A DNA stretch of 30,135 nt from Promethearchaeota archaeon (GTDB taxonomy: Archaea; Asgardarchaeota; Lokiarchaeia; Sigyniarchaeales; SOKP01): contig JALGVJ010000058.1 in assembly GCA_029838195.1 (NCBI GenBank), positions 1-30,135 on the forward strand. Reading direction: 5' to 3'. Of the stretch, positions 1,207-22,956 are shown piece by piece (position 1 is the stretch's first letter; every line of letters begins with the position of its first letter). The translations under genes and the position numbers were made by a program. The notes under the pieces were generated by a model. That model was not told where the DNA came from, made no database searches, and saw nothing but the letters and a program-made list of their open reading frames with translations.

Positions 1207-1641
1207 ATGCAGTTATCAAAGAAAGGAATGACCCTTTTCAATAAAATAACCGTACTCTTTAATTGTTTGACAATTTTACTAGGCTTGTTTTATGTGATTT
1301 TAAACGTTCGCTACTTTTTAGTCATGGTCTTTAGTTTCATTGTAGCAATCTCGTGGATCCTTGATATTCTTTTAGTGCTCATTGATGATTTTAAGATAAA
1401 TAAAAATAATTCCTTGGGAAAGCGATTAAATCTTTTAGGATACGTTTTCATGGTCGTACAATTAGCTTGCGTGTTTTTACTCGTTGGAGGATTATTTTTC
1501 TTGAATGCTGGCTGGACTTCCTTGATTATTCAATACACGCTCATCTACTTAGGTTTTTTTAGCTTTTTTGTTTTTGGGATGGGGCTTTCTCTTTTTAATT
1601 TAGTGCAATTAAAAAAGCCGGAGGGATGGACGTTTGAATAA
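1207..1641 (+). CDS. Small integral membrane protein (about 4 TM), hypothetical
   Basis: Four hydrophobic segments. ATG at 1207 preferred over TTG at 1192. Overlaps the next gene by 8 nt, suggesting coupling. Confidence 0.75.
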   Translation: MQLSKKGMTLFNKITVLFNCLTILLGLFYVILNVRYFLVMVFSFIVAISWILDILLVLIDDFKINKNNSLGKRLNLLGYVFMVVQLACVFLLVGGLFFLNAGWTSLIIQYTLIYLGFFSFFVFGMGLSLFNLVQLKKPEGWTFE

Positions 1642-2905
1642 AAAAACTATCGTGAAAATTGCGGCAGGAGGGCTATCTTGTTTGTTTTTGCTCTGGGGTG
1701 TTCTATGGATCTATTTATTATTTGAAGGAAGCCGGCGATTAAGAGGAATTACCATTTTTATTGAAGAATTCGTAGCACAGAGTTCTGCTTTAATGGTGGC
1801 AGCATGCGTTTCTGCTACGGTAATATTATTAAAATTGATAGCTAAAAAGAGAGTTACTCATCCACGGCAATATCTTGCGGTTGCCATTATTGGATTTTTG
1901 ATTGCGGGTTTGAATTCGCTATCTTTATTAACAACGCCTTATACGATAATTACTGCCAATACTGAATTTAATGAAGCATTTGGGAATGATTGGGAAGAAC
2001 AAATCCCAACAGAAGTAAGAGAATATTTTCTTCCCCTACCATATAATATTCCATCTCATTTTTTATCGGTACCCCGACAAGACTTCAAGGTAGAGAAGGA
2101 TGTTTTATTTTATTCGGGCGAAGGCATTAAATTACATTTTGATGTGTACATGCCCACGCGTCCATCCAGCGAGCTGCCGGGGAAAGGAAGCATTATCATT
2201 AATCTACACCCTGGTGCCTGGTCATCGGGAGGCAAAGGCACGTGGAACATGATATCGACGAGTCAATATTTAGCGTGTCAAGGATATGTCGTGTTTGATA
2301 TAGAATATGGTTTAATTGAATGGTTTAAATACGTTGCTCCTGCTCCTGAAACACCTGATTATGTTTATGGAAACTTTACTATTGAAGATCAAGTGCGCCA
2401 TATAGGTATTTTTACGAAAAAACTTGCTAATGAATATGCTTCTCGATATGGTGGAAATTTAAATTCGGTATATTTCATGGGACGCTCTGCGGGGGCACAT
2501 CTGGCGGGCGTTTGTGGATTGGGAATTAATAATAAATATCATGCCGGAACGTTCAGTTCAAGAATTACAGTTAAGGGGATAATACCATTATATTGCCCGC
2601 CCGCAGCTCCAGATTCTCTCTTGGAAGAAACCAGAGAAGAAAACGAAGAGAGATATAATGCATATTCTTTAGCGGGGCTTGCAGATAAAAATGATCCTCC
2701 AATTATATTTTTTCAAGGAACCAGCGATGGACAAGTCAAAATAGAATGGGTCCAAGAGATGGAAATAGAATTAGAAGCCGCAGGGGTAACATGTTGTCTA
2801 TTAGTCTTTCCGTTTGCCGGTCATGCGAATGATTTTGTTTTAGACTCAAACATAGGTCAAGTTTGGATATACTACTTGGAACGATTTCTTTACTTGACAC
2901 AATAG
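1634..2905 (+). CDS. Membrane-anchored alpha/beta-hydrolase (HSL/BD-FAE-like esterase/lipase) with about 3 N-terminal TM helices
   Basis: HPGAW oxyanion motif, GRSAG nucleophile elbow, GTSDG Asp, FAGH His; TTG start preceded by GGAGG. Confidence 0.88.
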   Translation: MNKKTIVKIAAGGLSCLFLLWGVLWIYLLFEGSRRLRGITIFIEEFVAQSSALMVAACVSATVILLKLIAKKRVTHPRQYLAVAIIGFLIAGLNSLSLLTTPYTIITANTEFNEAFGNDWEEQIPTEVREYFLPLPYNIPSHFLSVPRQDFKVEKDVLFYSGEGIKLHFDVYMPTRPSSELPGKGSIIINLHPGAWSSGGKGTWNMISTSQYLACQGYVVFDIEYGLIEWFKYVAPAPETPDYVYGNFTIEDQVRHIGIFTKKLANEYASRYGGNLNSVYFMGRSAGAHLAGVCGLGINNKYHAGTFSSRITVKGIIPLYCPPAAPDSLLEETREENEERYNAYSLAGLADKNDPPIIFFQGTSDGQVKIEWVQEMEIELEAAGVTCCLLVFPFAGHANDFVLDSNIGQVWIYYLERFLYLTQ

Positions 2906-2996: not shown

Positions 2997-4268
2997 TCAT
3001 AATCGATCTAATTCCTCCCTAATGGCACGTAATTCACGTTGTAAGGCCCGCTCTTTATTTTTTAATTCTCTTTTTTTTCTTGCTTTTAATCTTTTCTCGT
3101 CCAAGGAAAATAAGGAGGGCGTAGGAGGGAATCTTTCGACCCCTAAATCATTAAAAATTTTATCAATTTCGGGATTAGAAAACTCAGAGAGCGATACAAT
3201 GCGTTCTTCTTTGATTGATTTTTCCGACGCAATTCCAATTAGACAAGCGTCTCTTGCAATTAATAGATTAGCATGGGGCTGCTTTTCTTCTTTAACACAT
3301 TCTAAAAACGCCATGCGTTCTACTTGGCATCCCACGTGGCCTAAATTTTCATTATCCGAATAATAATCGACTTCGACTTCTCTTAATTCTCCTACGGGGC
3401 CTCCGGCGATCGTTAAACTTCGGTCATTCTTTGCCAAACCCCAAGCACCATTATCTCCAATAATCCCTATTTCTAATCCTTCAATGGGTGAAATCTCGTA
3501 CATGCAGAGACCTAAATTACCTTTTGCGCCATTTTCATATTCTATTACCACGTTCGCATGATCCACGATCGTTGGAGGCTGTTCTAATTTTTGTCCTTTA
3601 AAAGGGGAAAAAGCACATTGAATCACGTGTCCCGGCTTATAGACGTGTTGCCCGCCCATGGAAAATACTTTTTTAGGAGGTGATCGGATAAACCAATTAA
3701 ATAAATCAAAATGATGGCAGTTTTTTTCCAAAATGGCTCCGCCTGATTTTTTTTCATCAAAAAACCATGGAGTAGCAAAATTATCCCGATATTCTTTACA
3801 ATACGCCATCATTACCCTTCCAAAGGTTCCCTTTTCGACCAAATGTGCCATGGTACGATAAAGATTTGAATATCGATAAACCAATCCGATTTGAACTATC
3901 TTTTTCATTTCACTCATAGTTTTTATGATCTCATCCATTTGTTTTACATTAATTGCAACGGGCTTTTCTAAGAAGACATGCTTTTCTGCTTTCATTGCAT
4001 CGATGGTAATGGGGGCATGCAGATAATTAGGCGTTGATATTACCACGGCGTCTAATTCGGGAATATCTAATAATTCTCTATAATCAGTACATAAATGTGG
4101 CGAGCTTTTCTTTAAAAATTCTCGCGCCGTTTCGAGTTGCTTCTCATTAGGATCTGCAACTGCCATGATATTACACTCCGAAAGCTTATTAAAACCAATA
4201 CAATGTCCTCTTCCCATGTCTCCAAAACCAATTAATCCCAAATTCACGAGTTTAGAATTTGTTGTCAT
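2997..4268 (-). CDS. Gfo/Idh/MocA family NAD(P)-dependent oxidoreductase (IolG-like)
   Basis: GLIGFGDMG Rossmann motif, STPNYLH, LEKP, GGAILEKNCHHFD. Confidence 0.92.
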   Translation of the reverse strand: MTTNSKLVNLGLIGFGDMGRGHCIGFNKLSECNIMAVADPNEKQLETAREFLKKSSPHLCTDYRELLDIPELDAVVISTPNYLHAPITIDAMKAEKHVFLEKPVAINVKQMDEIIKTMSEMKKIVQIGLVYRYSNLYRTMAHLVEKGTFGRVMMAYCKEYRDNFATPWFFDEKKSGGAILEKNCHHFDLFNWFIRSPPKKVFSMGGQHVYKPGHVIQCAFSPFKGQKLEQPPTIVDHANVVIEYENGAKGNLGLCMYEISPIEGLEIGIIGDNGAWGLAKNDRSLTIAGGPVGELREVEVDYYSDNENLGHVGCQVERMAFLECVKEEKQPHANLLIARDACLIGIASEKSIKEERIVSLSEFSNPEIDKIFNDLGVERFPPTPSLFSLDEKRLKARKKRELKNKERALQRELRAIREELDRL

Positions 4269-4763: not shown

Positions 4764-6188
4764 ATGAATTCTGAAAGAGAAGATGATTTAAATTTACCCA
4801 ATATCCTCATTATCTTAGCAGATGATCTAGGATATGGAGATTTGGGATGTTATGGCGCGAAAAAAATTCCAACACCTAATATAGATCAAATCGCTTCCCA
4901 AGGTATTAAGTTTACTGATGTTCATGCAGCTTCCGCAGTTTGTACACCAAGTAGATATTCCATCATTACAGGACGTTATTGTTGGAGATCTAAACTAAAA
5001 AAAGGCGTTTTAGGAGGATTTGATTTTCCAATAATAGAAAAAGATAGGTTCACTATAGCACGAATGCTAAAAGCACGGGGATATCATACTGCAGCCATTG
5101 GCAAATGGCATCTTGGTTTTGAATGGCCTGTTGAGAATTCAGACCCTTCTTTATTTGAGCCGAGTTTCAGAATTGCTGAACCTCCGGATATTGATTATTC
5201 TAAGCCGCTTAAAGGAGGTCCGAATGATCTGGGGTTTGATTATTTTTTTGGCATTTCCGGTTCCCTTGACATGCCCCCTTATTGTTTTATTGAAAATGAT
5301 CACGTGTTAGGGATTCCAAACATCCCAAAATATCCCCTCTATCAACAACAGATAAAAGGTTCCATGGTAGAGGGCTGGAAAGATGAGGAGGTTGATATCA
5401 ATTTTACGAGAAAAGCAAAAATGTTTCTTAACGATCACGTGAATAACTTTAAGGAAAACCCTTTTTTTCTTTATTTGTGTACCTCAGCACCTCATAGACC
5501 TTGTGATATAAGACCTGATTTTGTTATTGGTAAAAGTCAAGCAGGAGATAGAGGAGACATGGTAGTTCTTTTCGATTGGGTAGTTGGTCAAATTGAAAAA
5601 GAGTTAGAAAAATTAAATCTTATCGAAAATACAATTCTCATCATTACTAGTGATAATGGGGCCAGAAAAACGTGCTATAATGGTTTGGATTATGGACATG
5701 ATTCAAATGGACCTTGGAGAGGTCAAAAAGCTGATATATGGGAAGGAGGACATCGAATTCCGTTTATCATTCGATGGCCTCGCACTATAAAGGGGAATAA
5801 AACATCTAATGAACCATTTTGCTTAATTGATTTATTTAGAACGTTCGCAGCGTTAATCAACTATGAGATGCCTCAAAATGCCGCCGAAGATAGTGTAAAT
5901 GTATTATTAGCTCTGTTGTCCAAAAATGAACGCTATTTCATGCGCGAATTTATGGTCCATCATTCTGATTTGGGATTTTTTGCTTTAAGACAAGGAAAAT
6001 GGAAATATATTAATAAATTGGGATCGGGAGGCTTTACACAGCCTATTAGACAATTACCAAAAAAGCATGGTCCCAAAGGTCAACTCTATGATCTAGAGGA
6101 GGATCCTAAAGAAATTAAGAATCTCTGGCTTTCAGAGCCAGAGATCGTTAAGGAATTAAAAGAGAAATTAGAGAAAATTAAGCGTTAA
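4764..6188 (+). CDS. Formylglycine-dependent (S1) sulfatase, Cys-type
   Basis: ADDLGYGD, CTPSRYSIITG (CxPxR), GKWHLG, SDNG, EGGHRIP; no signal peptide seen. Confidence 0.95.
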   Translation: MNSEREDDLNLPNILIILADDLGYGDLGCYGAKKIPTPNIDQIASQGIKFTDVHAASAVCTPSRYSIITGRYCWRSKLKKGVLGGFDFPIIEKDRFTIARMLKARGYHTAAIGKWHLGFEWPVENSDPSLFEPSFRIAEPPDIDYSKPLKGGPNDLGFDYFFGISGSLDMPPYCFIENDHVLGIPNIPKYPLYQQQIKGSMVEGWKDEEVDINFTRKAKMFLNDHVNNFKENPFFLYLCTSAPHRPCDIRPDFVIGKSQAGDRGDMVVLFDWVVGQIEKELEKLNLIENTILIITSDNGARKTCYNGLDYGHDSNGPWRGQKADIWEGGHRIPFIIRWPRTIKGNKTSNEPFCLIDLFRTFAALINYEMPQNAAEDSVNVLLALLSKNERYFMREFMVHHSDLGFFALRQGKWKYINKLGSGGFTQPIRQLPKKHGPKGQLYDLEEDPKEIKNLWLSEPEIVKELKEKLEKIKR

Positions 6189-6492: not shown

Positions 6493-9213
6493 TTATAAAG
6501 TTAAGAAATTCAAAGTTTTTCCGTTTTGAACGGTTTCGAGAAGGGCTTGAATTTGCTTTTCTTTTAATGAAAGTAAATTCTTAATTACAATGCTTTTTAA
6601 AATAATGATCCACATTTTATTTCTTGCTTCAGTTAAATCCGTGAGATCTACATTGAATAGTTGATTTTTTATTAATTTTTTATCCGATTCAAATAAAAGC
6701 TCTTCATAAATGTTAGCAATTTGAATGAGAGGAATCACGTTATTTAGAATTTGAAGATCCGTTGAAGAAATGGGAAGAGCCCCCGCTTTTTGACCTTTTA
6801 AAAGAATTTCGAAAAATTTCGAAAGCTTTTGATTACTCTTAATAACAGAAGGAAGTTTATCATGAATAAGCTTTTTAGTAGTAGATTCTAAATTGAAATA
6901 TTTTAATAATTTTTTACATTTTTCCATGATTCGCTCTTTTTTACATATCATGCTTCCCGAGTTCACGGTAAGGGTAATTTCAAGTTCATCAAAAGGTGTT
7001 AATATAATTTTATTTATTTTTAACGCTTGTTCCTTTTCTTGAAATTCCGATTCACCAGATATTTCATTACCGTTTAATATAATGGTAATCATATCAGGTG
7101 GATTGATGCCCTTAAAAGTAAACGTATAAGACCTTCGTTCAGGAATCCACTCAAATAATTCCTTCAATAGGGGTTTCTTCACGCGAAAAAGTAATGAATG
7201 CTTTTTACTTATCAAGCAAAACTCTGTTAAAACATTTTTTCCTTTCAAATAATCTTGGGAAACGCCATCATCTTCATAAAGCTGAAAATTATTATCTTTT
7301 CCGGGAAAAATGATAACATGTAATGAAGGGGGATTTGAAGTGTCATTCCATTTAAATTTTTCATTCGAATAATCAGCTAAAGGAATGATTCCACCCGCTT
7401 TAGCAAAAACTGGAATATCTTCAAGTAGACCATGTACGACTATTACTTGATTCCCCTTATGATATTCTCCCGTGAAAAAATTAAACCATTCGCCTTCCGG
7501 TAGCCAAATTATTTGTCTGGATTGTCCGATATCCTCATCGATTTTTGAAGTGAATGGAGCGCATAATAATTCAGATCCAAAGAAATATTGATTGGGAAAA
7601 TTATAAGCATTTTCTTCCAGCGGATATTCATAATACATGGGTCTAATTAAAGGAAGACATTCATTCCACGTTTTCCAGGCCATGGTATAAATGTAAGGAA
7701 TGAAAGAATGACGTAATTGCATGACCTTTTTAGCTATTTGAAAAATTTCTTCATTAAATTCCCAAGGAAGGCGTTCATTGAAGGGATTTTTAGTACTATG
7801 AAGGCGAAAAATAGGATTAAAAAGTCCAAATTGGATCCACCGGATATATAATTCGGGATCAAAACCCTTGCCTCCCATATGTCCTCCTAAATCATGACTC
7901 CACCAAGTAAAACCAATATTAGATGCAGTACTTGTAAAATAAGGTAAAAAATCTAAACTCTGCCATGTAGCAAATGTATCTCCCGAGAAGCCTATGGGAT
8001 ATCTATGATTTCCTAAGCCACCATAACGTGAAAAAATAAAGGGCCTTTTCTCCTCGTTTCTTCCCGAATCATAAAAGCTCAAGTGGTTAATCCACCATAA
8101 TGGGTCTAATCCCTCAATTTTGGAAGTTTCTCCTTGCTGCCAGTCAGTCCACCAAAAATCTATTCCTTCTTGCTCATAGGGGTGGTAAATGAAGTTGAAA
8201 TAAGCCTCATAAAAACGAGGAACAGTCAAATCAAATTCAATGGGCTGATACGTGGTAGGATCAATACCCATGTATCGAGCTACACGTTCATATTGTTTTT
8301 CATGTGGAAAAATACCACTAGCCGGATGAATGTTGAGCGCGACTCTTAAACCTTTTTCTTCATGTAAAAACTTTAATAATGCCTTATAATCTGGAAATAA
8401 ATCTTCATTCCACGTGAATCCCGTCCATCCATCGTGAAATTTTAAGGTTTCAAGATGTTTCATATCTCGTTTTTTAATGTATTCTTCTATATTTACAACA
8501 TGCCAATCCATATCGATAACGCAGACAGATAAAGGAGTTTGCTTCTCTTCAAATTTATTCATTAATTCCATTAATTCTTCTTGAGTATATTCCCAATAAC
8601 GGCTCCACCAATTCCCTAAAGCCCAACGTGGGATCATGGGAATCATACCAGCAATTTTACAAAAATCTTGTAAACATTGCTTGAAATGAGTTCCATATCC
8701 AAAAAAATAAATATCTAATTCCTCATGGTCTCTTTTTTTAATCCAGCCATTTTCATCAAAAATTAAGGAGCTTGAATCATCTATAATGCTCCATCCATTT
8801 CTAGACATTAATCCATTTTCAAGCGGAATAGGTCCATCAGCATTATCTAAAGTCCTAGCTGTTCCTTTTAAATTTTCAGAATCTTTATCGCCGTAATGCC
8901 AAATTGTACCCGTTTCTTTAAGTTCAATAAATAGATTTTTAGGACTTAACTCTTCTTCGCCCTTAAAGTAATATAAATGAAGATGTTCGGTGATAATTTC
9001 TATTCTATCCGCTAATTTAATGCAATCAAATTTTGGAACTGGTTGTTTTCGATACCAAAATACTTGGCTTGGTCGATCACAAAAAAAACTCGTTTTATCA
9101 TGTTCTATTCGAATAATCCTGGAAGTAAGCACCGTGAATCGAATTTTGCCTTCTTTAATAATTGCGTCCTGAGATGCTTCAGGATTCATACTTCTAAATA
9201 GATTTAACTTCAT
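6493..9213 (-). CDS. Glycoside hydrolase family 31 (GH31_u1-like alpha-glycosidase) with C-terminal DUF5110-like domain and extension
   Basis: WWSRYW, IDMDWH, FWWTDWQQG (nucleophile Asp), FSGDT (acid/base), SHDLGGH, FRLHS, YEDDG. Confidence 0.93.
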   Translation of the reverse strand: MKLNLFRSMNPEASQDAIIKEGKIRFTVLTSRIIRIEHDKTSFFCDRPSQVFWYRKQPVPKFDCIKLADRIEIITEHLHLYYFKGEEELSPKNLFIELKETGTIWHYGDKDSENLKGTARTLDNADGPIPLENGLMSRNGWSIIDDSSSLIFDENGWIKKRDHEELDIYFFGYGTHFKQCLQDFCKIAGMIPMIPRWALGNWWSRYWEYTQEELMELMNKFEEKQTPLSVCVIDMDWHVVNIEEYIKKRDMKHLETLKFHDGWTGFTWNEDLFPDYKALLKFLHEEKGLRVALNIHPASGIFPHEKQYERVARYMGIDPTTYQPIEFDLTVPRFYEAYFNFIYHPYEQEGIDFWWTDWQQGETSKIEGLDPLWWINHLSFYDSGRNEEKRPFIFSRYGGLGNHRYPIGFSGDTFATWQSLDFLPYFTSTASNIGFTWWSHDLGGHMGGKGFDPELYIRWIQFGLFNPIFRLHSTKNPFNERLPWEFNEEIFQIAKKVMQLRHSFIPYIYTMAWKTWNECLPLIRPMYYEYPLEENAYNFPNQYFFGSELLCAPFTSKIDEDIGQSRQIIWLPEGEWFNFFTGEYHKGNQVIVVHGLLEDIPVFAKAGGIIPLADYSNEKFKWNDTSNPPSLHVIIFPGKDNNFQLYEDDGVSQDYLKGKNVLTEFCLISKKHSLLFRVKKPLLKELFEWIPERRSYTFTFKGINPPDMITIILNGNEISGESEFQEKEQALKINKIILTPFDELEITLTVNSGSMICKKERIMEKCKKLLKYFNLESTTKKLIHDKLPSVIKSNQKLSKFFEILLKGQKAGALPISSTDLQILNNVIPLIQIANIYEELLFESDKKLIKNQLFNVDLTDLTEARNKMWIIILKSIVIKNLLSLKEKQIQALLETVQNGKTLNFLTL

Positions 9214-9329
9214 GCTAAATTTTTATTCTTGTTAATTTTATCTTGGAATTAATTGCTTAATTTTTACCATGAGCTTTTTATTTTATTTATTTTTAAAAAT
9301 AAATATCCCTTAATATCATTTATTATCTT

Positions 9330-10757
9330 TTATCGTTGGTCAAGGTACCATTGCTTTAAATCTTTAATAAGCTTGAATTCTAAAAGAAGCTCTCCCCCAG
9401 CATCCTTCTCAATTTTCTCAAAAAGTTCTTCGTAGATATCCGGATTGTCCGCAACGATATTATCATTCCATTCCGGATCTTTTGATAGATCAAAAAGTTT
9501 TTGATATCTTTTATTATTAGAAGTAATTAAAGCATAATGATCATCTTTATAAAGAGTATATGCATTGAAACCACAAGTAATATAATTTCTATCTCCAATA
9601 AGCTGATCTTTTTCATCTAAAAAAACCGATAAATCAATACCATCAAAAACCTCCTCTTGTTTTTTCCCTAAAAATCCGTAGATTGTCGGTAAAATATCGT
9701 GATCATAAACATAAGTTTTTTTAATTCTTTTTGGTCCTTTTACTCCTCTTGGTGGTTTAATCATGAATGGAATGTCCACGAGCTCAGGATACATGTGAGT
9801 GTGAATTTTTCCCGTAGCACCATGTTCACCAATGCTATGTCCGTGGTCACTTATTAAAATAATTAAAGAATCATCATAAAGCTCTAATGCTTTCAACTCT
9901 TCAATGAATTTTCCAAACCAATAATCACAATTCGATACCTCTCCAGCATATCCCGCACGCATGTATTCTAATTCCCCCGGAAGGAGATAACTTAAATTAT
10001 CACTATAAGATGGAAGAATTACCTTTTTTCCCTTGTAATTTTTATCGACATACAGTTCTAGAAATCTCTGTGGTGGATCCCACGGCTCGTGTGGGTCGAA
10101 TTCGTCAATTACAGCCAGTACGTTTTCCAGATTTTTGCTATTTCTTACAAAACGGATGGCTTCATTAAAAGTTTGAGCCGGAAAGTAATCATCTTCCGTT
10201 TTTCTTTCTTGAACATTCATTAAATATTTTTCTATACCTCTTCTTTGCATTTTTCGAGTAGTTCGAGCTTTTTCATTACCAATGAGATGAACATTTACGA
10301 GTTCATTAAATTTTTCATCTTTTGTATTAATTACTGCTCGATATTTATCAAATTCATGCCCTCGGATCCAATTCCATTCATCAAAACCAATGTGAAAATT
10401 CATGTGTGGTTTAAATTGATGATAAGTGCTGGTAATAAATGAGGAAACGAATTTGAACTTCTTCAAGTATTCAGATAAATGAATTTGATAAGGCGGGATG
10501 GGATGCCATCCAGGAGCTATAACGGGGTCATCTGTTCTTAGTTCAGGGCGGGGATGGTTAAAAGGAAATGTTCGAATGCCCGTATGAATCGCTCTTCGAA
10601 CGGGAATAGTGGCCAAAGATTCGGGATATGCATTATAGAAAACTATTGAATCTTTAGCAAATGCATCGAAATTGGGTGTATGAATCCAGTCATTTCCGTA
10701 AGTCTTGCCCGAGTGGTCTTTACGGAGTGTATCAAAAATAATGAGAAAAATTTTCAT
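9330..10757 (-). CDS. Sulfatase-like alkaline-phosphatase-superfamily hydrolase with Thr at the nucleophile position
   Basis: DTLRKDH, ATIPVRRAIHTG (T-x-P-x-R), DPHEPWDPP, SDHG metal ligands. Confidence 0.88.
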   Translation of the reverse strand: MKIFLIIFDTLRKDHSGKTYGNDWIHTPNFDAFAKDSIVFYNAYPESLATIPVRRAIHTGIRTFPFNHPRPELRTDDPVIAPGWHPIPPYQIHLSEYLKKFKFVSSFITSTYHQFKPHMNFHIGFDEWNWIRGHEFDKYRAVINTKDEKFNELVNVHLIGNEKARTTRKMQRRGIEKYLMNVQERKTEDDYFPAQTFNEAIRFVRNSKNLENVLAVIDEFDPHEPWDPPQRFLELYVDKNYKGKKVILPSYSDNLSYLLPGELEYMRAGYAGEVSNCDYWFGKFIEELKALELYDDSLIILISDHGHSIGEHGATGKIHTHMYPELVDIPFMIKPPRGVKGPKRIKKTYVYDHDILPTIYGFLGKKQEEVFDGIDLSVFLDEKDQLIGDRNYITCGFNAYTLYKDDHYALITSNNKRYQKLFDLSKDPEWNDNIVADNPDIYEELFEKIEKDAGGELLLEFKLIKDLKQWYLDQR

Positions 10758-10883
10758 ATTGTATAGCTTATATTTTCTTTTTAATTTAAAATTTAACTTA
10801 ATGTTATAATAGGTTTCTTCTTGCGATAGTAAATGTCCAATTTTTAAAAAATATAAAAATAGTAATTAGAAAAAGAGACTATT

Positions 10884-12035
10884 TTAAGAGATGGGATAAG
10901 TGCCATGCTTGTTAATTACATTTAGAATCGTAGGAACTGAGGCAAGCGTGTGCATGATAGATGGAAATCCTTCAGAGACGCCCATTAAGAAATTATCTCC
11001 CGGAGCAACATCTTTTAACATTTCAAGAGTGGTTTTTTTAACTGCTTTTTGTCCTTGAAGGCTTACAGATTCAGGAAAATTTGCCCATATGATTTTATCT
11101 TTCCATAATTCTCTTGCTTCCTTAAGCGGTAAATCTCCCATGGGAGGAGGAGTGAAACTTTCAATCGCATCAATTTTCGTTTTAGGAATCAAGTTTTTCA
11201 AGCTATTTAACATTCCATCCATGTGTACCACGTATTTCTTATCATGTTTATGAAATATTTCTGCTACTTCATTATAAAATGGAAGGCTGAATTTTTCAAA
11301 AAAAGTGGGAGTCGTGATTTGACCAGTAACATTATCGGGGCCCCACACGTAATCTGCAGGCGATTCCGCAGCAATTTTATATATTTCTAATTCTTTTTTA
11401 TAAATTAATCGATATAATTCCTCAAATTCTTTTCTATTCGTGTAGTACTCAAGAGCCAAGGTTTTGGGGCCCATTAGCATCCTCAAGGCTTGAAATGGGG
11501 ATTTAGGAACAAAAGCCGCTACTACGCCGTAATCTCCAATTATCATTTTAAAATCATTTATATCATCATAATGGGGTTGGTATTCCGTATTTTCAATCAG
11601 ATATTTCAAGGGTTCATAATCATCAGAACTTTTAATTAGATATCCATCTTCGGGAAACCAAGGCAACATTTCAGATAAGTCAAGTGATTTCCATTTTGTT
11701 TTTAAGGTTAATTTTCCTTTAGGTGTTTCGATACTTCCCGTTACGAGGTGAGAACTATTCATAGCAATCAATATATCCACGGGAGACCAAGAGGTTATAT
11801 TTCCATAGTGATGAGTAGCTTCCATTTTGGCATTAGGACAAGAAACCTCATGTGCTTGTACAACCATCGAACCGTGTAGTCCCAAGCCTTTATCCAGCAA
11901 CTTCCGCCAAGGTTGATACAAGGCTAATCCAATGATATATTTAGTTTCAACATATACCGTAAATGGGATAATGTCCGGAGCTTCATGATTTAAGACGGCC
12001 AAAATTCGTTCGCGAGCTTTCAACTTGTCATCCAC
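10884..12035 (-). CDS. Uroporphyrinogen-decarboxylase/MtaA-CmuA superfamily protein, probable corrinoid-dependent methyltransferase
   Basis: RERILAVLNHEAPD N-terminus, SPF motif, PDNVTG, FEKFSLPFY, VHMDG, TPPPMGD; overlaps the corrinoid protein gene by 16 nt. Confidence 0.82.
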   Translation of the reverse strand: MDDKLKARERILAVLNHEAPDIIPFTVYVETKYIIGLALYQPWRKLLDKGLGLHGSMVVQAHEVSCPNAKMEATHHYGNITSWSPVDILIAMNSSHLVTGSIETPKGKLTLKTKWKSLDLSEMLPWFPEDGYLIKSSDDYEPLKYLIENTEYQPHYDDINDFKMIIGDYGVVAAFVPKSPFQALRMLMGPKTLALEYYTNRKEFEELYRLIYKKELEIYKIAAESPADYVWGPDNVTGQITTPTFFEKFSLPFYNEVAEIFHKHDKKYVVHMDGMLNSLKNLIPKTKIDAIESFTPPPMGDLPLKEARELWKDKIIWANFPESVSLQGQKAVKKTTLEMLKDVAPGDNFLMGVSEGFPSIMHTLASVPTILNVINKHGTYPIS

Positions 12036-12667
12036 CTCCTACAAATTTTTACACCTTCAATAGCCGTTTTGGCACAGCCATCAGCACCAATACTTTTAAC
12101 AAACTCCTCAGTTACAGAAGGCCCTCCAATAAGAATTTTTATTTTTCCTTTTAAATCGGCGTTTGCGATATCTTTGACAATTTTTTGGATTTCAATCAAG
12201 GTTCCGGAGAGAAGGCCGGAAATGGCGACAATATCCGGCCGTTCTTTTTTAATTGCCTCAATGAATTGGTCGCTCGATACATCCACGCCAAGATCAACCA
12301 CTTCAAAACCTTCTGCTTTTAAAAAAGTTGTGACTATGTTTTTCCCAATGTCGTGAATATCGCCTTTACCCGTTCCAATAACAACTTTACCAATAGCTCT
12401 TGAAGATTTTGAAACATTTAAACGAGGAATGAGAATTTTCATCAATCTCGTACTCGTTTCTCCTGCCATTATTAACTCGGGTATGAAATATTCTTCAGCT
12501 TCAAATTTTTCTCCTACTTTTTTTAAGGCTTGAGCAATACCATTTTCAATTATCAAAATAGGATCAATATTTTGGCTTAAAGCATGCTTGCATAATTCTT
12601 CTGCTTTTTTTAAATCTAATTCCACGATAGCATTTTTTAAATTTTCTAAAATTTGGCTATTTTCCAT
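12020..12667 (-). CDS. Methyltransferase-cognate corrinoid (B12-binding) protein, MtaC/MttC/MtvC-like
   Basis: N-terminal helical cap (EEYFIPELIMAGE), GDIHDIGKN (DxHxxG), DLGVDV, SGLL, IGG. Confidence 0.95.
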   Translation of the reverse strand: MENSQILENLKNAIVELDLKKAEELCKHALSQNIDPILIIENGIAQALKKVGEKFEAEEYFIPELIMAGETSTRLMKILIPRLNVSKSSRAIGKVVIGTGKGDIHDIGKNIVTTFLKAEGFEVVDLGVDVSSDQFIEAIKKERPDIVAISGLLSGTLIEIQKIVKDIANADLKGKIKILIGGPSVTEEFVKSIGADGCAKTAIEGVKICRRWMTS

Positions 12668-12722
12668 TATTTTTCCCTTTCTCCAAATTTATATTGTATT
12701 ATTTAAATTATCGCATTAATTA

Positions 12723-12735
12723 TATATAAAATTTC
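12723..12735 (-). promoter_or_regulatory. Candidate archaeal BRE + TATA box for the corrinoid/methyltransferase unit
   Basis: Minus strand reads GAAAT TTTATATA about 56 nt upstream of ATG 12667, plus a purine-rich GGAGAAAGGG near the start; weak evidence in AT-rich DNA. Confidence 0.4.
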
Positions 12736-13024
12736 AAGATAGAAGGAAACAAAAAAACCATTAATATTCATGAAAAATAATTGGTAAGTGAAGAATTTTC
12801 ATGAAGGGAAAAAACCAAGATTGTTTTAAAAAATCCGTTATAATTAAGAAATTAAAGAATGAGCTATTTTATTCCAATTTTTACTCCTTTTATTAGTAAA
12901 AACTCAAAATAATGAATGACATGTAGCATGATAGAAATACATACCTTTTTCTGTATTATTTTAAAAAAATCATCCCATTTTAATAAAAGTAATTTACAGA
13001 AATCGCTTGAATTCAAAAAAAAAG

Positions 13025-13845
13025 TCAAATTATTTTTCCAGCAATAACGTGAATACCAAGCTTATTGGCATATTCTAAATGCTCTTTCTTTATTTCTAAA
13101 CAAGCCATTATTAATCCATCATACCCTTTTTCATGCTTCATTTTATATAATTTACCTTTTAAAATTAAATCCGCAATATCTCTATTGTCTGCCGTGGATT
13201 TAATTTCCATTAGATATACCTTCCCATCTCGAATTACCACATCGATATCAGTCGTATAATGAATGGAATAAACACTTCCATCAAGATCATATAAAAATTC
13301 TCGGGTAATATTACTCTTATCTAATTTTCTTGAATTAGTTTGTCACTTAATAAATTTAAAACTAAATCTTGCAAATTAAATCCAGTTCTCGTACTTACCG
13401 TGGTAATGAGCCTACGTAAATCGTCACGCTCTTTTGAGGCTTCTTCAAACCGTTTATCCATCTCTTTGATGAGAGTCTCGAAGCGCTTGTCCACGGCTTC
13501 GAACCGTTTATCCATCTCTTTGATGAGAGTCTCGAAGCGCTTGTCCACGGCTTCGAACCGAGCATTCATCTCATTAATGAGAGTCTCGAAGCGCTTGTCC
13601 ACGGCTTCGAACCGAGCATTCATCTCATTAATGAGAACGCTTTCGAATCGCTTATCAACGGTTTCAAATCGCTTGTCTATTTGTTGGATGAGCATTTCGA
13701 ATCTCTTATCGACTTCAGAAAAAAACATCTTAAGATCATCTTTAGTAGCAACGACTCCTGAGAGGGCACTAATAATTGCTCCTTTTACCTCATCATCTTC
13801 TCGAATTAATTTCGGTAACAATTTTAAAAAATCTTCTTTTTCCAT
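13025..13845 (-). pseudogene. DUF3782-like coiled-coil/PD-(D/E)XK nuclease gene, split by a single-base frameshift near 13321-13345
   Basis: The 5' ORF (13845-13321) has the typical N-terminus and coiled-coil repeats. The -1 frame continues DKSNITREFLYDLDGSVYSIHYTTDIDVVIRDGKVYLMEIKS, in frame with the 13240-13025 ORF (D...EIK nuclease motif). Confidence 0.82.
13444..13662. repeat. 54-bp coding tandem repeat, about 4 units (A,A,B,B'), encoding an 18-aa coiled-coil unit
   Basis: Units start at 13444, 13498, 13552 and 13606; they encode AVDKRFETLI(K/N)EM(DK/NA)RFE. Confidence 0.95.
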
Positions 13846-13961
13846 TTCGCGAAAATCGTTTTTTCTATGAAGAATATTGTTATTGTATTGATTTAAATCT
13901 AACTGATAATTTAGAAAAATATTCCGGTAATCAGTATTTTTTATCGATTAATTAAAAAAAG

Positions 13962-17141
<3,180 letters not shown>

Positions 17142-17397: not shown

Positions 17398-17802
17398 ATG
17401 GTGAATTTAGAGAAAATAAAAGAAATTGCATGTAAATACAAGTTAATTTTAATTTATCTATTTGGATCTAAAGCGATTCAAAAAACTTCAAAATTGAGTG
17501 ATATAGACATTGCTATTCTTTTAAACGATAAAATCCATTATGATTTAAAAGAGCTGATATTAGATTTGATCTTTGAATTCGTACAGATCTTTAGAATTGA
17601 TAGGATTGATTTATTAATTTTAAATTCTGCTCCATTAGCGATTCAATATAATGTTATTACAGAAGGAAAGTTGCTTTATCAATCAAATATTGAAGAAAGA
17701 TGTAATTATGAGATAAAAATAAGAAAAAAATATTTTGATTTTAAAAAATACGAAGAAGAGTATTTTAAAGCAATGCATGATCAAATTCTGGAGGAATATT
17801 AA
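17398..17802 (+). CDS. mntA: Minimal nucleotidyltransferase (MNT) antitoxin, MntA-like
   Basis: LFGS-x10-DID motif (LFGSKAIQKTSKLSDID), IDLLILN; adjacent to the HEPN gene. Confidence 0.92.
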   Translation: MVNLEKIKEIACKYKLILIYLFGSKAIQKTSKLSDIDIAILLNDKIHYDLKELILDLIFEFVQIFRIDRIDLLILNSAPLAIQYNVITEGKLLYQSNIEERCNYEIKIRKKYFDFKKYEEEYFKAMHDQILEEY

Positions 17803-17804
17803 GA

Positions 17805-18227
17805 TTGATTGATAAGAAAGTTATAAATTCTCGCATTGCTAAATTGAGAGAATATATTAAAATTTTAGAAGAATTAAGTCAAGAAAAAAAAGAAGATTTC
17901 TTAAAAAATTATAAAATATATGGTTTAGCAGAAAGATACTTACAATTATCAATTGAATGTGTTTTAGACATGGGGAATCATATTATTTCAAGAATAGGAT
18001 TTAAGAAGCCAGAAACATATCAAGATATTATATTGATTCTTGGAAAAAATTCAGTAATACCCGAAAATTTTGCAGAAAAAATTGCTAAAATGGCAGGACT
18101 TCGTAATATTTTAGTGCACGGATATTCTGAGATTGATGAAATAATAATATATAATTATGTAAAGCACGATTTAGACGATTTTAGAAAATTTATCAAATAT
18201 ATAATTCAATATTTAGATGAAATGTGA
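17805..18227 (+). CDS. hepT: HEPN/DUF86 RNase toxin, HepT-like
   Basis: ERYLQLSIE, RNILVHGY (R-x4-H-x-Y); TTG start 2 nt after the mnt stop, with GGAGGA upstream. Confidence 0.92.
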   Translation: MIDKKVINSRIAKLREYIKILEELSQEKKEDFLKNYKIYGLAERYLQLSIECVLDMGNHIISRIGFKKPETYQDIILILGKNSVIPENFAEKIAKMAGLRNILVHGYSEIDEIIIYNYVKHDLDDFRKFIKYIIQYLDEM

Positions 18228-18409: not shown

Positions 18410-19834
18410 ATGGAAAAACCAAATATTATTCTTATTTTAATTGATGATTTAGGGTGGAAAGATTTAAGTTGCTATGGTAGCAGTTTTTATGAAACGCCTA
18501 ATATCGATAGACTTGCGTTCGAGGGCATGACCTTTACCAATGCTTACGCTGCGGCTCCCGTGTGCTCACCCACGAGAGCTAGCCTTCTTACTGGTAAATA
18601 TCCCGCCACAGTTGGATTAACAAATTACATTGATAATGAACCTAGGGTAGATACTCTTTCTCCTAATGAATCATTTCGGGCACGAGGAAAACTCATCGAT
18701 GCACCTTTTATTAATCATCTACCTCTTTCTGAAGATACTATTGCAAGAAGATTAAGGGAAAATGGTTATTCCACGTGGCATGTAGGAAAATGGCATCTTG
18801 GTTCCCTTCCATTTTATCCGGAGAATCATGGTTTTGATGTAAATATAGGAGGATGTAATTGGGGACTTCCCATTTACGGCTATTTTAGTCCATGGAGAAT
18901 CCCTACTTTAGAAGATGGTCCTAAAGGATATTATTTAACTGATTTTTTAACAGATAAAGCAACTGAGCTCATTAAGAATAAAAATGATAAACCCTTCTTT
19001 CTAAATTTATGGTACTATTCCGTTCACATTCCCATTCAAGCGAAACGTGAGATTACGAGATATTATAAAGAAAAAAGAAGAAAAATGGGATTGGACAAGG
19101 TTAAAACTTTCGAATTAGGTGAATTTTTTCCTTGTGAACATAAAAGAAATTTTAGAATAAAACGACGCTTGATTCAATCTGATCCAAAATATGCGGCAAT
19201 GATTCATTCGCTGGATGAAAATATCGGGCGCATTTTGAAAACTCTTGAGGAGTTTGGAGAAACCAAAAATACTATTATCATTTTTACTTCAGACAACGGA
19301 GGATTGGCTACTGCCGAAGGTTCGCCTACTTGTAATGCTCCTTTAGCAGAAGGTAAGGGCTGGATGTATGAAGGAGGGATACGGGAACCCTTAATTATTA
19401 AATGGCCTGGCCAAATTAAAGAAGGAAGCACGTGTAATGTTCCAATTACGAGTCCAGATTTTTATCCTACAATTTTAGAAATCACTAACACGCCCTTTTT
19501 GGAAACCCATCACCATGAAGGCACGAGTTTTTTACCACTACTTAAGGGAAAGACGAGATTAGGCAAAAAAGAAAGAGGAATTTATTGGCATTTTCCCCAT
19601 TATGGAAACCAAGGAGGCACACCAGGCTCTTCTATTCGTCGGGGAGATTATAAATTGATTAAATTTCACGAGGACAACCACGTGGAATTGTATGATTTAC
19701 GGAAAGATATTGGAGAAACATTGGATTTATCAGAAAATTTAGCTAATATAAGGGAAGAACTCGAACAGGAATTAAATGACTGGATGACTCGGGTGGGGGC
19801 AAAATTACCAGAAATCAATCCTAATTATCATTAA
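18410..19834 (+). CDS. Formylglycine-dependent (S1) sulfatase, Cys-type
   Basis: DDLGWKD, CSPTRASLLTG, GKWHLG, SDNGG, EGGIREP; no signal peptide. Confidence 0.95.
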   Translation: MEKPNIILILIDDLGWKDLSCYGSSFYETPNIDRLAFEGMTFTNAYAAAPVCSPTRASLLTGKYPATVGLTNYIDNEPRVDTLSPNESFRARGKLIDAPFINHLPLSEDTIARRLRENGYSTWHVGKWHLGSLPFYPENHGFDVNIGGCNWGLPIYGYFSPWRIPTLEDGPKGYYLTDFLTDKATELIKNKNDKPFFLNLWYYSVHIPIQAKREITRYYKEKRRKMGLDKVKTFELGEFFPCEHKRNFRIKRRLIQSDPKYAAMIHSLDENIGRILKTLEEFGETKNTIIIFTSDNGGLATAEGSPTCNAPLAEGKGWMYEGGIREPLIIKWPGQIKEGSTCNVPITSPDFYPTILEITNTPFLETHHHEGTSFLPLLKGKTRLGKKERGIYWHFPHYGNQGGTPGSSIRRGDYKLIKFHEDNHVELYDLRKDIGETLDLSENLANIREELEQELNDWMTRVGAKLPEINPNYH

Positions 19835-20773: not shown

Positions 20774-21643
20774 GTGAGAATACCCAAAATAATTAAAGAA
20801 ATACAAGAAGAATTCAATATAATCGGAAGGGAAAATGAACTAAAACAAATCATCTTAGCTCATTCTGTTCGAAAGCACTTAATGCTCGAGGGAGATGTCG
20901 GAGTAGGTAAGACCACGCTTGCTCAAGCAGTTGCCACCTATTTTGACTCTCATTTTTTTCGAATTGATTGTTCCGAAGATACGCTTACTCATAACCTTAT
21001 AGGATATTTTGACCCTCCATTAGTCATTTCCAAAGGATATGTAGAAGATTCCTATGTTTATGGCCCGTTACCATTAGCAATGATGAATGGAGGGTGTTTA
21101 TTTATTAATGAAGTCAATCGCATGCCGGAAAGTACTCAAAATATTTTATTGACGGCTTTAGATGAAAGAATGATTGAGATACCCAAATTGAAAACCATTC
21201 ACGCTAAAGAGGGCTTTTTCGTAATAGCAACCTTAAATCCAGCAGCTCACGTGGGAGTCACGGCATTAGGTGAGGCTCTCAAAGATAGATTTATTTGGAT
21301 TCATTTGGATTACCAATCTCCTGAAGAGGAATTGGAAATCATCAAAAAAGAAACAGGAGCATCGAATTCAGACACCCATAACGTTATTAAAATTTCTCAA
21401 AAGATCATGCAAAAAACCAGAGAACACTCTTCCGTTCGAAGGGGCAGTTCTATTCGAGGGGGTATTGATCTGGCAGAACTCATGATGAAATATGAGAATC
21501 CCCGAAACTCTAAAAATTGGGTAGAAGCAAGCATCATGGCCTTGTATAATAAAATTGAGCTGGAGGATGGTCTTGCCCGTTCAAAAAAAGAAGTCATAAC
21601 AGATATCGTATTGTCCGTTTTAAATGAGTCGGATTTTCAATAA
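20774..21643 (+). CDS. MoxR-family AAA+ ATPase
   Basis: Walker A GDVGVGKT, Walker B LFINEVNR, ATLNP sensor 1, ALKDRF arginine finger, SIRGG. Confidence 0.93.
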   Translation: MRIPKIIKEIQEEFNIIGRENELKQIILAHSVRKHLMLEGDVGVGKTTLAQAVATYFDSHFFRIDCSEDTLTHNLIGYFDPPLVISKGYVEDSYVYGPLPLAMMNGGCLFINEVNRMPESTQNILLTALDERMIEIPKLKTIHAKEGFFVIATLNPAAHVGVTALGEALKDRFIWIHLDYQSPEEELEIIKKETGASNSDTHNVIKISQKIMQKTREHSSVRRGSSIRGGIDLAELMMKYENPRNSKNWVEASIMALYNKIELEDGLARSKKEVITDIVLSVLNESDFQ

Positions 21644-21657
21644 TCGATGATTTCTCC

Positions 21658-22761: not shown

Positions 22762-22956
22762 TATTATAAAATTTTGCGAAAAATTGTATCGTTTTTATAA
22801 GGAAAGGGTTAGTATTTCACGATGTATTAATTAATTTCAATAATCATTATCCTTTTATTTCCTCTTTAATATAAATCTTAAAATTTTAAAGTCTCTCATG
22901 TTTAAATAAATAGATTAAATCTATTTAATGTAAAAATGTTTAAAGGCTAAATTTAG

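What the first reader, a model, noticed from the sequence alone, without database searches (positions are those of the whole stretch)
6493..12667. Corrinoid protein - methyltransferase - Thr-type hydrolase - GH31 run: candidate anaerobic sugar/cyclitol demethylation system
Seen: four consecutive minus-strand genes (16-nt overlap, then 126-nt and 116-nt gaps) inside a glycan-degradation region. Known: cobamide-dependent O-demethylases (MtvB/OdmB/MtoB-type, UroD fold, with a cognate corrinoid protein) are described for methoxy-aromatics, and related systems for methanol and methylamines. The described route for removing the methyl of 6-O-methyl-galactose in marine bacteria is an O2-dependent P450. 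Inference: this module strips methyl groups from methylated sugars, O-methyl-inositols or head groups freed by the neighbouring hydrolases, passing methyl to a pterin/Wood-Ljungdahl pathway while freeing the sugar. That would be an oxygen-independent route I do not know to be described. No second methyltransferase or RACE/RamA activator is in the window.
Basis: partly seen in the sequence, partly recalled or inferred. Interest (0 to 1): 0.8.

Follow-up and report, generated by a model that had tools for sequence, protein, structure and literature searches.

The report
Portable B12 methyl-transfer cassette in glycan locus
An Asgard archaeon carries a two-gene vitamin-B12 methyl-transfer cassette that, together with an odd threonine-type sulfatase-like gene, was dropped between two sugar-cleaving genes; this hints at an oxygen-free way to strip methyl groups from sugars, but most relatives keep the cassette elsewhere and the substrate is unknown.

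Summary
They are a His-on corrinoid protein, a very divergent UroD-fold methyltransferase, a sulfatase-fold protein with Thr at the formylglycine position, and a GH31. An independent assembly at 99% identity has the same order. They are not one conserved module. The corrinoid protein and methyltransferase form a tight, overlapping two-gene cassette in every Asgard orthologue, but most of those loci hold no glycan genes. In the same-genus genome, GH2 and GH31 are 67 nt apart. So window 9214-13961 (nuclease-gene remnant, cassette, Thr-type gene) is an insertion, or a deletion in the relative. Some evidence favours a link with the Thr-type gene. The cassette sits beside its orthologue in a second, rearranged glycan locus, and the gene trees argue against simple shared descent. 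In two related genomes the Thr-type gene adjoins other UroD paralogues. The genome also encodes one RamA activator, two MtrH homologues and the H4MPT Wood-Ljungdahl pathway. My best reading is a substrate-specific MT1 plus its carrier, with a His/Asp/Glu site instead of MtaA's His/Cys/Cys. A methylated glycoside is a candidate substrate (about 0.3), not shown. Earlier notes of this scan describe the same cassette type and theme on other DNA.

The parts
12020..12667 (-). Corrinoid (cobamide) carrier protein with cap and Rossmann domains; D-x-H-x-x-G present (GDIHDIG), so His-on
   Evidence: Pfam PF02607 + PF02310. Best NCBIfam match is MtgC-like at 182 bits, below its cut-off of 370. Sequence. 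Always directly upstream of the UroD gene in orthologues.
10884..12035 (-). Divergent UroD-fold methyltransferase (P0002), probably an MT1; likely true start at the TTG four codons in
   Evidence: PF01208 43 bits. AF2 model pLDDT 92.9. Foldseek top hits are UROD and MtaA 4ay7 at 12-15% identity. HMDG replaces H-x-C-G, and no Cys is invariant. At most 29% identity to the other 25 paralogues.
9330..10757 (-). Sulfatase-fold (alkaline-phosphatase superfamily) protein with Thr at the formylglycine position; no signal peptide
   Evidence: PF00884 95 bits. T-I-P-V-R-R motif, conserved in all orthologues read. Orthologues in 17 of 24 same-family genomes. Their neighbours are GPH transporters, Gfo/Idh/MocA, GNAT, GH2 and URO-D genes.
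6493..9213 (-). GH31 glycosidase, cytoplasmic, specificity unresolved
   Evidence: PF01055/PF21365/DUF5110. NCBIfam alpha-glucosidase and alpha-xylosidase models match only below cut-off. The orthologue in same-genus G001 directly follows GH2.
13962..17132 (-). GH2 LacZ-type beta-galactosidase, the upstream edge of the inserted block
   Evidence: NF052611 1126 bits, cut-off 999. 68% orthologue in G001, adjacent to GH31.
13026..13845 (-). DUF3782/PDDEXK_10-type gene: a coiled-coil part with 54-nt tandem repeats, then the PD-(D/E)xK part in another frame (broken or frameshifted)
   Evidence: Repeat family D1. Sequence read. Pfam PDDEXK_10 on the matching gene of L096. Eight similar stretches in the genome.
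9214..13961 (.). 4.75-kb block (nuclease-gene remnant, corrinoid protein, UroD, Thr-type gene) that separates GH2 from GH31 here but not in the same-genus genome
   Evidence: G001:C36 has GH2 6542-9709 and GH31 9777-12491, 67 nt apart. No bounding repeats found. No G+C anomaly.
4764..6188 (+). Cys-type sulfatase (C-T-P-S-R)
   Evidence: PF00884 163 bits; motif.
18410..19834 (+). Cys-type sulfatase (C-S-P-T-R)
   Evidence: PF00884 199 bits; motif; 73% orthologue beside GH2-GH31 in G001.
2997..4268 (-). Gfo/Idh/MocA sugar oxidoreductase
   Evidence: Pfam and NCBIfam.
1634..2905 (+). BD-FAE-type esterase with a hydrophobic N-terminus
   Evidence: Pfam; N-terminus.

Best explanation
The core feature is a self-contained, translationally coupled two-gene cassette. 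It comprises a His-on corrinoid carrier protein and a divergent UroD-fold methyltransferase, found across Asgard archaea. This Asgard group belongs to a large uncharacterised branch of the UroD/MtaA superfamily. Most likely the enzyme is a substrate-specific MT1. It would take a methyl group, probably O-linked, from an unidentified small molecule onto Co(I) of its own carrier. One of the two stand-alone MtrH homologues would then pass the methyl to H4MPT and the Wood-Ljungdahl pathway, and the single RamA would re-reduce oxidised cobalt. In this species the cassette lies, together with a Thr-type sulfatase-fold gene and a nuclease-gene remnant, on a 4.75-kb block between GH2 and GH31 of a cytoplasmic glycoside-processing locus. 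The four-gene run is therefore a lineage-specific juxtaposition, not a conserved operon. The repeated adjacency of cassette and Thr-type gene makes a shared pathway plausible but unproven. Shown: the gene content, the fold, the pairing, the synteny comparisons and the components elsewhere in the genome. Inferred: the MT1 role, the methyl sink and any substrate.
For: Pairing: the corrinoid gene is directly upstream and overlapping in every Asgard orthologue with enough flank, and its identity falls in step with that of the enzyme (72/82, 58/72, about 50/65%). Fold: AF2 pLDDT 92.9, top matches UROD and MtaA. Site: H271, D273, D139, D289, N235 and K266 are invariant, E292 and E355 nearly so, and no Cys is conserved; HMDG lines up with H-x-C-G of 12 paralogues. 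Components elsewhere: RamA at C72, MtrH at C50 and C1, CdhC and Mch. One distant family member (L049) sits next to a RamA homologue. Portability: the cassette is present in 5 of 40 relatives and absent from the same-genus genome, and its flanks vary. Insertion: GH2 and GH31 are 67 nt apart in G001. Link to the Thr-type gene: a second locus, L097, reads MFS, GH4, Cys-sulfatase, GNAT, GFO, anSME, corrinoid protein, UroD, Thr-type gene (convergent, 61% identical), GH38. The UroD and Thr-type gene trees both place the two linked loci apart.
Against: No biochemical data exist for any member of this branch. Profile searches hit no solved structure at E<=1, so MT1 versus MT2 rests on the ligand pattern alone. 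Most distant family members (33-43% identity, mainly Bathyarchaeia) have no adjacent corrinoid protein, so the wider family need not be corrinoid-dependent. The 126-nt spacer after the enzyme gene holds three T5-6 runs and TATA-like words, but at 17% G+C these could be chance, so co-transcription with the Thr-type gene is undecided. The block could equally be a deletion in G001.
Confidence: 0.6

Rival explanations
1. The cassette and the Thr-type sulfatase-fold enzyme work on the same imported, decorated glycoside. The Thr-type enzyme removes a sulfate or phosphate ester, the cassette removes an O-methyl group without oxygen, and GH2, GH31 and Gfo/Idh/MocA enzymes then consume the sugar.
For: The cassette adjoins the Thr-type gene in two glycan loci with different orientation and different glycosidases (GH2/GH31 versus GH4/GH38), and the loci are not sisters in either gene tree. 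The Thr-type gene is flanked by other UroD paralogues in G006 and G017. Its usual neighbours are GPH sugar transporters and Gfo/Idh/MocA genes. A second, unrelated UroD paralogue, GH94-like gene and corrinoid protein form a run in a GH2/esterase/GFO locus of the same genome. UroD paralogues lie within 1 kb of a GPH transporter gene in 4 of 24 cases against 0.75 expected, P about 0.009. Only the O2-dependent P450 route for 6-O-methyl-galactose was found in the library.
Against: Most orthologous cassettes lie among non-glycan genes: a SAM methyltransferase, Fe-ADH and AFOR, or FrhB-like and Fe-S proteins, actin, flavodiiron protein. G024 and G008 have both genes, but on different contigs. Presence of the two genes across relatives does not correlate. 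G006 and G017 are one genus, so they count as about one event. GPH transporters make up roughly 2% of this genome's genes, so nearness to one is weak evidence. No transporter lies in the window.
Confidence: 0.3
2. The cassette demethylates a non-sugar donor already known for UroD-type MT1 enzymes, such as methoxylated aromatics (OdmB, MtvB, MtoB) or methyl halides (CdmB). Its place in the glycan locus would then be an accident of insertion.
For: All characterised UroD-type MT1 enzymes use such donors, and CdmB-like genes are reported in Asgard archaea (PMC13222342). The commonest conserved neighbours of the cassette are a convergent class-I SAM methyltransferase, Fe-ADH and AFOR, not glycan genes. 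The block carries a nuclease-gene remnant from a multi-copy family.
Against: There is no detectable sequence tie to any named MT1 or MT2. NCBIfam gives only 37 bits to the MtaA subfamily model, cut-off 244, and there are no PDB hits. A chance insertion next to the same rare gene in two lineages is unlikely, roughly 1e-3 per event by my estimate.
Confidence: 0.2
3. The UroD-fold protein is an MT2: it passes methyl from the carrier to an acceptor (a thiol, pterin or other nucleophile). The substrate-specific MT1 would be encoded elsewhere.
For: MtaA, MtbA and MtoA are UroD-fold MT2 enzymes. There is only one methyltransferase gene per cassette.
Against: The His/Cys/Cys-type site is replaced by His/Asp plus carboxylates. 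Two MtrH homologues already offer an MT2. No candidate MT1 (MttB, MtaB or another UroD) is consistently linked to the cassette.
Confidence: 0.1
4. The wider family is not corrinoid-dependent at all (for example a cofactor-free decarboxylase or another TIM-barrel enzyme), and the Asgard pairing with a B12 protein serves another purpose, such as sensing.
For: Most distant members (33-43% identity) lack an adjacent corrinoid protein. UROD itself is a decarboxylase with the same fold.
Against: Overlapping, co-inherited genes occur in every Asgard orthologue. The carrier has the full cap plus DxHxxG architecture of methyltransferase-cognate corrinoid proteins: TIGR02370 scores 172 bits, though below its cut-off. 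A RamA homologue lies next to a distant member.
Confidence: 0.05

Closest known systems
Three- or four-component corrinoid O-demethylase systems (MtoABCD of Methermicoccus and Archaeoglobus; Odm, Vdm and Mtv of acetogens and Desulfitobacterium)
   Same: A UroD-fold methyltransferase sits next to a cognate cap + Rossmann corrinoid protein. A RamA/RACE-type activator and a pterin-directed MT2 are present in the genome. The host is an anaerobe with the Wood-Ljungdahl pathway.
   Different: Only two of the four components are clustered. The enzyme shows no detectable sequence tie to named MT1 enzymes, has a beta-rich insert at about residues 50-115 and a His/Asp/Glu pattern. The candidate MT2 is MtrH-type, not MtoA- or MeTr-type. 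The substrate is unknown.
MtaA/MtbA methylcobamide:coenzyme M methyltransferases (PDB 4ay7)
   Same: The same fold; among the best Foldseek matches (TM 0.59-0.67).
   Different: 12% identity. NF004889 scores 37 bits against a cut-off of 244. H-x-C...C is replaced by H-M-D and GVSEGF.
CdmB chloromethane methyltransferase of Acetobacterium dehalogenans (PMC13222342)
   Same: A UroD-superfamily MT1 with extensions early in the barrel, working with a corrinoid protein; homologues are reported in Asgard archaea.
   Different: The Asgard CdmB relatives are reported from Sigynarchaeales and lie next to mecE-like genes, which I did not see here.
Cytochrome P450 6-O-methyl-D-galactose demethylase of marine Bacteroidota (PMC6292453, PMC10033563)
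   Different: An O2-dependent monooxygenase that releases formaldehyde. It is unrelated in fold and chemistry, and nothing here shows that the substrate is shared.
Type I (formylglycine) sulfatases and Thr-nucleophile members of the alkaline-phosphatase superfamily (NPP, LtaS/EptA)
   Same: The Thr-type protein matches the PF00884 fold, including the N-terminal D-x-x-R-x-D metal region.
   Different: Thr replaces the Cys/Ser that becomes formylglycine. Unlike LtaS and EptA the protein is soluble and cytoplasmic. Its activity is unknown.

Membership tests
Corrinoid-dependent methyltransferase system (MT1 + corrinoid protein + MT2 + activator) | Corrinoid protein with B12-binding_2 cap, Rossmann B12-binding domain and D-x-H-x-x-G | tested here: met
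   PF02607 71 bits and PF02310 89 bits; GDIHDIG in the sequence.
Corrinoid-dependent methyltransferase system (MT1 + corrinoid protein + MT2 + activator) | Methyltransferase gene genetically coupled to the corrinoid protein | tested here: met
   Overlapping genes here and in all Asgard orthologues with enough flank.
Corrinoid-dependent methyltransferase system (MT1 + corrinoid protein + MT2 + activator) | MT2 and ATP-dependent activator in the same cluster | tested here: not met
   None in the window. RamA (C72) and MtrH (C50, C1) stand alone elsewhere in the genome.
Corrinoid-dependent methyltransferase system (MT1 + corrinoid protein + MT2 + activator) | Methyl transfer to or from Co(I)/CH3-Co(III) | not testable with these tools
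   Needs an anaerobic UV-visible assay.
MtaA/MtbA/MtsA (MT2, methylcobamide:CoM) | Score above the family model cut-off | tested here: not met
   NF004889 37 bits against 244.
MtaA/MtbA/MtsA (MT2, methylcobamide:CoM) | H-x-C-x(n)-C zinc and thiol-activating ligands | tested here: not met
   HMDG and GVSEGF at the aligned positions. No conserved Cys in 54 family members. The low-identity alignment limits certainty.
UroD-type O-demethylase or dehalogenase MT1 clade (OdmB, VdmB, MtvB, MtoB, CdmB) | Phylogenetic placement with characterised members | not tested
Profile against PDB found nothing at E<=1, and I do not know whether CdmB is in that copy.
Uroporphyrinogen decarboxylase (HemE) | Full-length match to URO-D or HemE models | tested here: not met
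   Pfam matches only model positions 119-327 at 43 bits. No HemE model among the NCBIfam hits.
Formylglycine (type I) sulfatases | C/S-x-P-x-R maturation motif | tested here: not met
   T-I-P-V-R-R, conserved as Thr in 12 orthologues.
Bathyarchaeial MtgB O-demethylase (PMC10989822) | Homology to MtgB_1 or MtgB_2 (about 300 aa, reported only in Bathyarchaeia) | not tested
   No sequence available. The length differs (383 versus about 300 aa), and the paper says MtgB has no homology to known MT1 enzymes.

The most novel reading that the evidence does not exclude
Asgard archaea have an oxygen-independent, cobamide-dependent way of removing methyl ethers from imported, sulfated or phosphorylated glycosides. 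A mobile unit carries it: a corrinoid protein, a His/Asp/Glu UroD-fold MT1 and a Thr-type sulfatase-fold esterase. This unit inserts into cytoplasmic glycan-processing loci and feeds the methyl group through MtrH into the H4MPT Wood-Ljungdahl pathway.
Probability: 0.3. Interest if true: 0.8.

Novelty: new variant of a known kind. Interest (0 to 1): 0.55.

Why it matters
Methylated sugars such as 6-O-methyl-galactose of porphyran, and methylated fucose, xylose and uronates, block ordinary glycan catabolism. The only demethylation route I found in the searched literature needs O2. Anoxic sediments, where Asgard archaea and Bathyarchaeia abound, would need another route. A cobamide route would also link glycan breakdown to C1 and acetogenic metabolism. 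Whatever the substrate, this work defines a large untested branch of the UroD/MtaA superfamily: 738 clusters at 50% identity with E<=1e-30. It has a carboxylate-type site and is a compact two-gene target for biochemistry. The recurring Thr-type sulfatase-fold partner, of unknown chemistry, is widespread in this Asgard family.

Tried and rejected
1. Sequence or profile search of the enzyme against PDB found nothing at E<=1. Only the fold search placed it.
2. I looked for bounding repeats of the 4.75-kb block and found only short AT-rich chance matches. Aligning the GH2-GH31 spacer of G001 to the block edges gave no usable breakpoints.
3. Composition shows no G+C anomaly over the block.
4. A family-wide tally of UroD against sulfatase positions across 31 genomes was abandoned, because the output lists only 150 of 320 matches.
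5. The mlp gene clusters (PMC10418091) are mostly from Firmicutes and concern methyl-sulfur or methyl-selenide metabolism, with no sugar link. I rejected them as the closest system.
6. Promoter and terminator reading of the spacers is uninformative at 16-21% G+C. The sigma-70 scanner was not used, because the organism is an archaeon.
7. The anSME idea: the radical SAM gene next to the cassette in L097 and L001 is an anaerobic sulfatase maturase (TIGR03942 just above cut-off). Its orthologue here lies on another contig (C9), so it is not part of this locus.


Full report
**Organism and observation.** The window is contig C94 of a 4.5-Mb, 33% G+C genome. Its close protein relatives are named Lokiarchaeota, Promethearchaeota, Hodarchaeota or Helarchaeota, so this is an Asgard archaeon.

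- **12020-12667:** a corrinoid protein with cap and Rossmann domains and a GDIHDIG motif.
- **10884-12035:** a URO-D-family protein with a weak, partial Pfam match of 43 bits.
- **9330-10757:** a PF00884 sulfatase-fold protein that reads T-I-P-V-R where sulfatases have C/S-x-P-x-R.
- **6493-9213:** a GH31.

The gaps are 126 and 116 nt. The overlap is 16 nt from the GTG start. From the TTG start used by orthologues it is 4 nt.

Around these genes lie a LacZ-type GH2, two Cys-type sulfatases, a Gfo/Idh/MocA enzyme, an esterase and a xylose-isomerase-like TIM protein. None of the enzymes has a signal peptide. An independent assembly (GCA_054387035.1) shows the same order at 99-100% identity.

**The cassette.** The enzyme has 46 full-length relatives at 54-99% identity, nearly all Asgard. 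A second tier follows at 33-43% in Bathyarchaeia, Brockarchaeota, Anaerolineae, Actinomycetota and others. A profile search finds 738 clusters at 50% identity with E<=1e-30.

In every Asgard locus with enough flank, the corrinoid gene lies directly upstream and overlaps the enzyme gene. Its identity to the window's copy falls in step with that of the enzyme. In the second tier an adjacent corrinoid gene is the exception, although one such locus has a RamA homologue next door.

The AF2 model is confident (pLDDT 92.9). It shows the UroD/MtaA barrel with a beta-rich insert at about residues 50-115. Sequence and profile searches reach no solved structure.

The family keeps H271, D273, D139, D289, N235 and K266, with E292 and E355 nearly invariant, and it has no conserved Cys. 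When aligned with the genome's 25 other UroD paralogues, HMDG falls on the H-x-C-G motif. Twelve paralogues keep that motif and ten replace it with H-x-D-G. The window's enzyme is at most 29% identical to any paralogue.

**Rest of the pathway.** The genome holds the following:
- 26 URO-D matches and six corrinoid proteins.
- One RamA activator (C72) and two MtrH homologues (C50, C1).
- Pterin-binding proteins.
- CdhC and Mch, so an H4MPT Wood-Ljungdahl methyl sink exists.

RamA and MtrH are not next to any corrinoid or UroD gene.

**Is the four-gene run a module?** No.
- Among 40 relatives the cassette occurs in five, and it is absent from the 96%-complete same-genus genome G001.
- The Thr-type gene has 59-71% orthologues in 17 of 24 same-family genomes, at places without the cassette.
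- GH31 orthologues occur in G001 and G013, never beside the Thr-type gene.
- In G001, GH2 (68% identical) and GH31 (64%) are 67 nt apart, with the 73% orthologue of the window's 18410-19834 sulfatase nearby.

Window 9214-13961 is therefore an inserted block, or a block deleted in G001. It contains a DUF3782/PDDEXK_10 gene remnant, the cassette and the Thr-type gene. I found no bounding repeats and no composition anomaly.

In G011, GH2 (58%) lies about 1 kb from a Thr-type gene (65%) without the cassette. A stepwise origin of the block is therefore also possible.

**Contexts of the cassette elsewhere.** Pfam scanning of 98 neighbours within 6 kb in 12 Asgard loci shows no glycoside hydrolase or sulfatase among the 25 commonest families.
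- **Largest subclade:** a convergent class-I SAM methyltransferase, Fe-ADH and aldehyde:ferredoxin oxidoreductase.
- **82% relative (L099):** FrhB-like and Fe-S proteins and seryl-tRNA synthetase.
- **L003 and L005:** unrelated genes.
- **L001 (71%):** an anaerobic sulfatase maturase orthologue, an MFS transporter, an FGGY kinase and a GH2 mannosidase.
- **L097 (72%, from a JGI metagenome):** MFS, GH4, Cys-sulfatase, GNAT, Gfo/Idh/MocA, anSME, corrinoid protein, UroD, a convergent Thr-type orthologue (61% identical, T-I-P-A-R-R) and GH38.

In the UroD tree, the window (with L099) and L097 (with L001) fall in separate well-supported subclades, and each has a sister without the Thr-type gene. 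In the Thr-type tree the two linked copies are also not sisters. Either the linkage arose twice or it survived many rearrangements and losses. A rough estimate gives a chance insertion next to this gene about 1e-3 per event. This is my estimate, not a computed test.

**Further hints for a sugar link.**
- Neighbours of Thr-type orthologues in nine related loci are GPH-type sugar transporters (6), Gfo/Idh/MocA (6), GNAT (4), GH2 (2) and URO-D (2).
- In G006 the Thr-type gene is flanked by two other UroD paralogues. In G017 it is followed by one. These two genomes belong to one genus.
- In the window's own genome, an unrelated UroD paralogue, a GH94-like gene and a corrinoid protein form a run. 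It lies beside a GH2 mannosidase, an esterase and two Gfo/Idh/MocA genes.
- UroD paralogues lie within 1 kb of a GPH transporter in 4 of 24 cases against 0.75 expected (P about 0.009). The genome has some 70-90 such transporters, which tempers this.
- Second-tier loci show a scatter of GH2, GH4, BNR sialidase-like, apiosidase-like, aldose-epimerase and enolase-superfamily neighbours. I had no background to test this against.

**Literature.** The searched library holds only the P450 route for 6-O-methyl-galactose. No paper there combines methylated sugars with corrinoid demethylation. CdmB (PMC13222342) shows that UroD-type MT1 enzymes can use non-aromatic donors and have Asgard relatives. The bathyarchaeial MtgB (PMC10989822) is about 300 aa and is described as unrelated to known MT1 enzymes. 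The mlp clusters (PMC10418091) are a different system.

**Verdict.** I put the following weights on the readings:
- **Corrinoid methyl-transfer pair:** about 0.85 that the cassette is one.
- **MT1 rather than MT2:** about 0.6, based on the ligand pattern.
- **Functional link to the Thr-type gene:** plausible, about 0.45.
- **Methylated glycoside as donor:** about 0.3.
- **GH31 as part of a unit with the cassette:** not supported.

Earlier notes of this scan describe the same cassette type in another Lokiarchaeon (e1-5425992) and the same theme in at least 19 genomes. I treated these as leads only.

Noticed in passing
window 13026-13845 (-): A DUF3782/PDDEXK_10-type gene. A coiled-coil ORF with three or more 54-nt tandem repeats (13443-13636) ends in TAG, and the PD-(D/E)xK part continues in another frame (13320-13026). 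About eight similar stretches occur in the genome. It lies at the edge of the inserted block.
   Followed up: partly
window 17398-18227 (+): A nucleotidyltransferase (MNT, Polbeta) and HepT-like pair, a toxin-antitoxin-type module, between GH2 and the 18410 sulfatase.
   Followed up: no
window 20774-24267 (+): A MoxR-type AAA ATPase, a VWA protein and an archaeal Nre (Nre_N/Nre_C) protein in a row.
   Followed up: no
G000, whole genome: A very large expansion of GPH/MFS_2 sugar-type transporters: 89 Pfam matches and about 71 full-length genes in 4.5 Mb. The genome also has 26 URO-D matches but only six corrinoid proteins and one RamA.
   Followed up: partly
L089 (G006:C132) 7912-11799; L091 (G017:C4) 7896-10467: In related genomes the Thr-type sulfatase-fold gene is flanked by other UroD paralogues (orthologues of G000 C1:282421 and C41:3982), with no corrinoid gene nearby.
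   Followed up: partly
L007, L015, L105, L109, L111-L114, L117, L120: In a large Asgard subclade the cassette is followed by a convergent 206-aa class-I SAM methyltransferase (best PDB match 6mro), then Fe-ADH and aldehyde:ferredoxin oxidoreductase. This is conserved synteny of unknown meaning.
   Followed up: partly
L097 7949-9067 (-); L001 12681-13898 (+); G000:C9:25092-26291: An anaerobic sulfatase maturase with a C-terminal SEC-C motif lies beside the cassette in two loci. One of them (L001) has no sulfatase within 10 kb.
   Followed up: partly
L049 7924-9744: A RamA homologue (36% identical to the G000 copy) lies directly upstream of a bathyarchaeial second-tier UroD-family gene that has no adjacent corrinoid protein.
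   Followed up: no
G000:C39:26686-34311 (L179): A second glycan-embedded set in the same genome: a UroD paralogue, a GH94-like 906-aa gene and a corrinoid protein on one strand, divergent from a GH2 beta-mannosidase-like gene, with an esterase and two Gfo/Idh/MocA genes nearby.
   Followed up: yes
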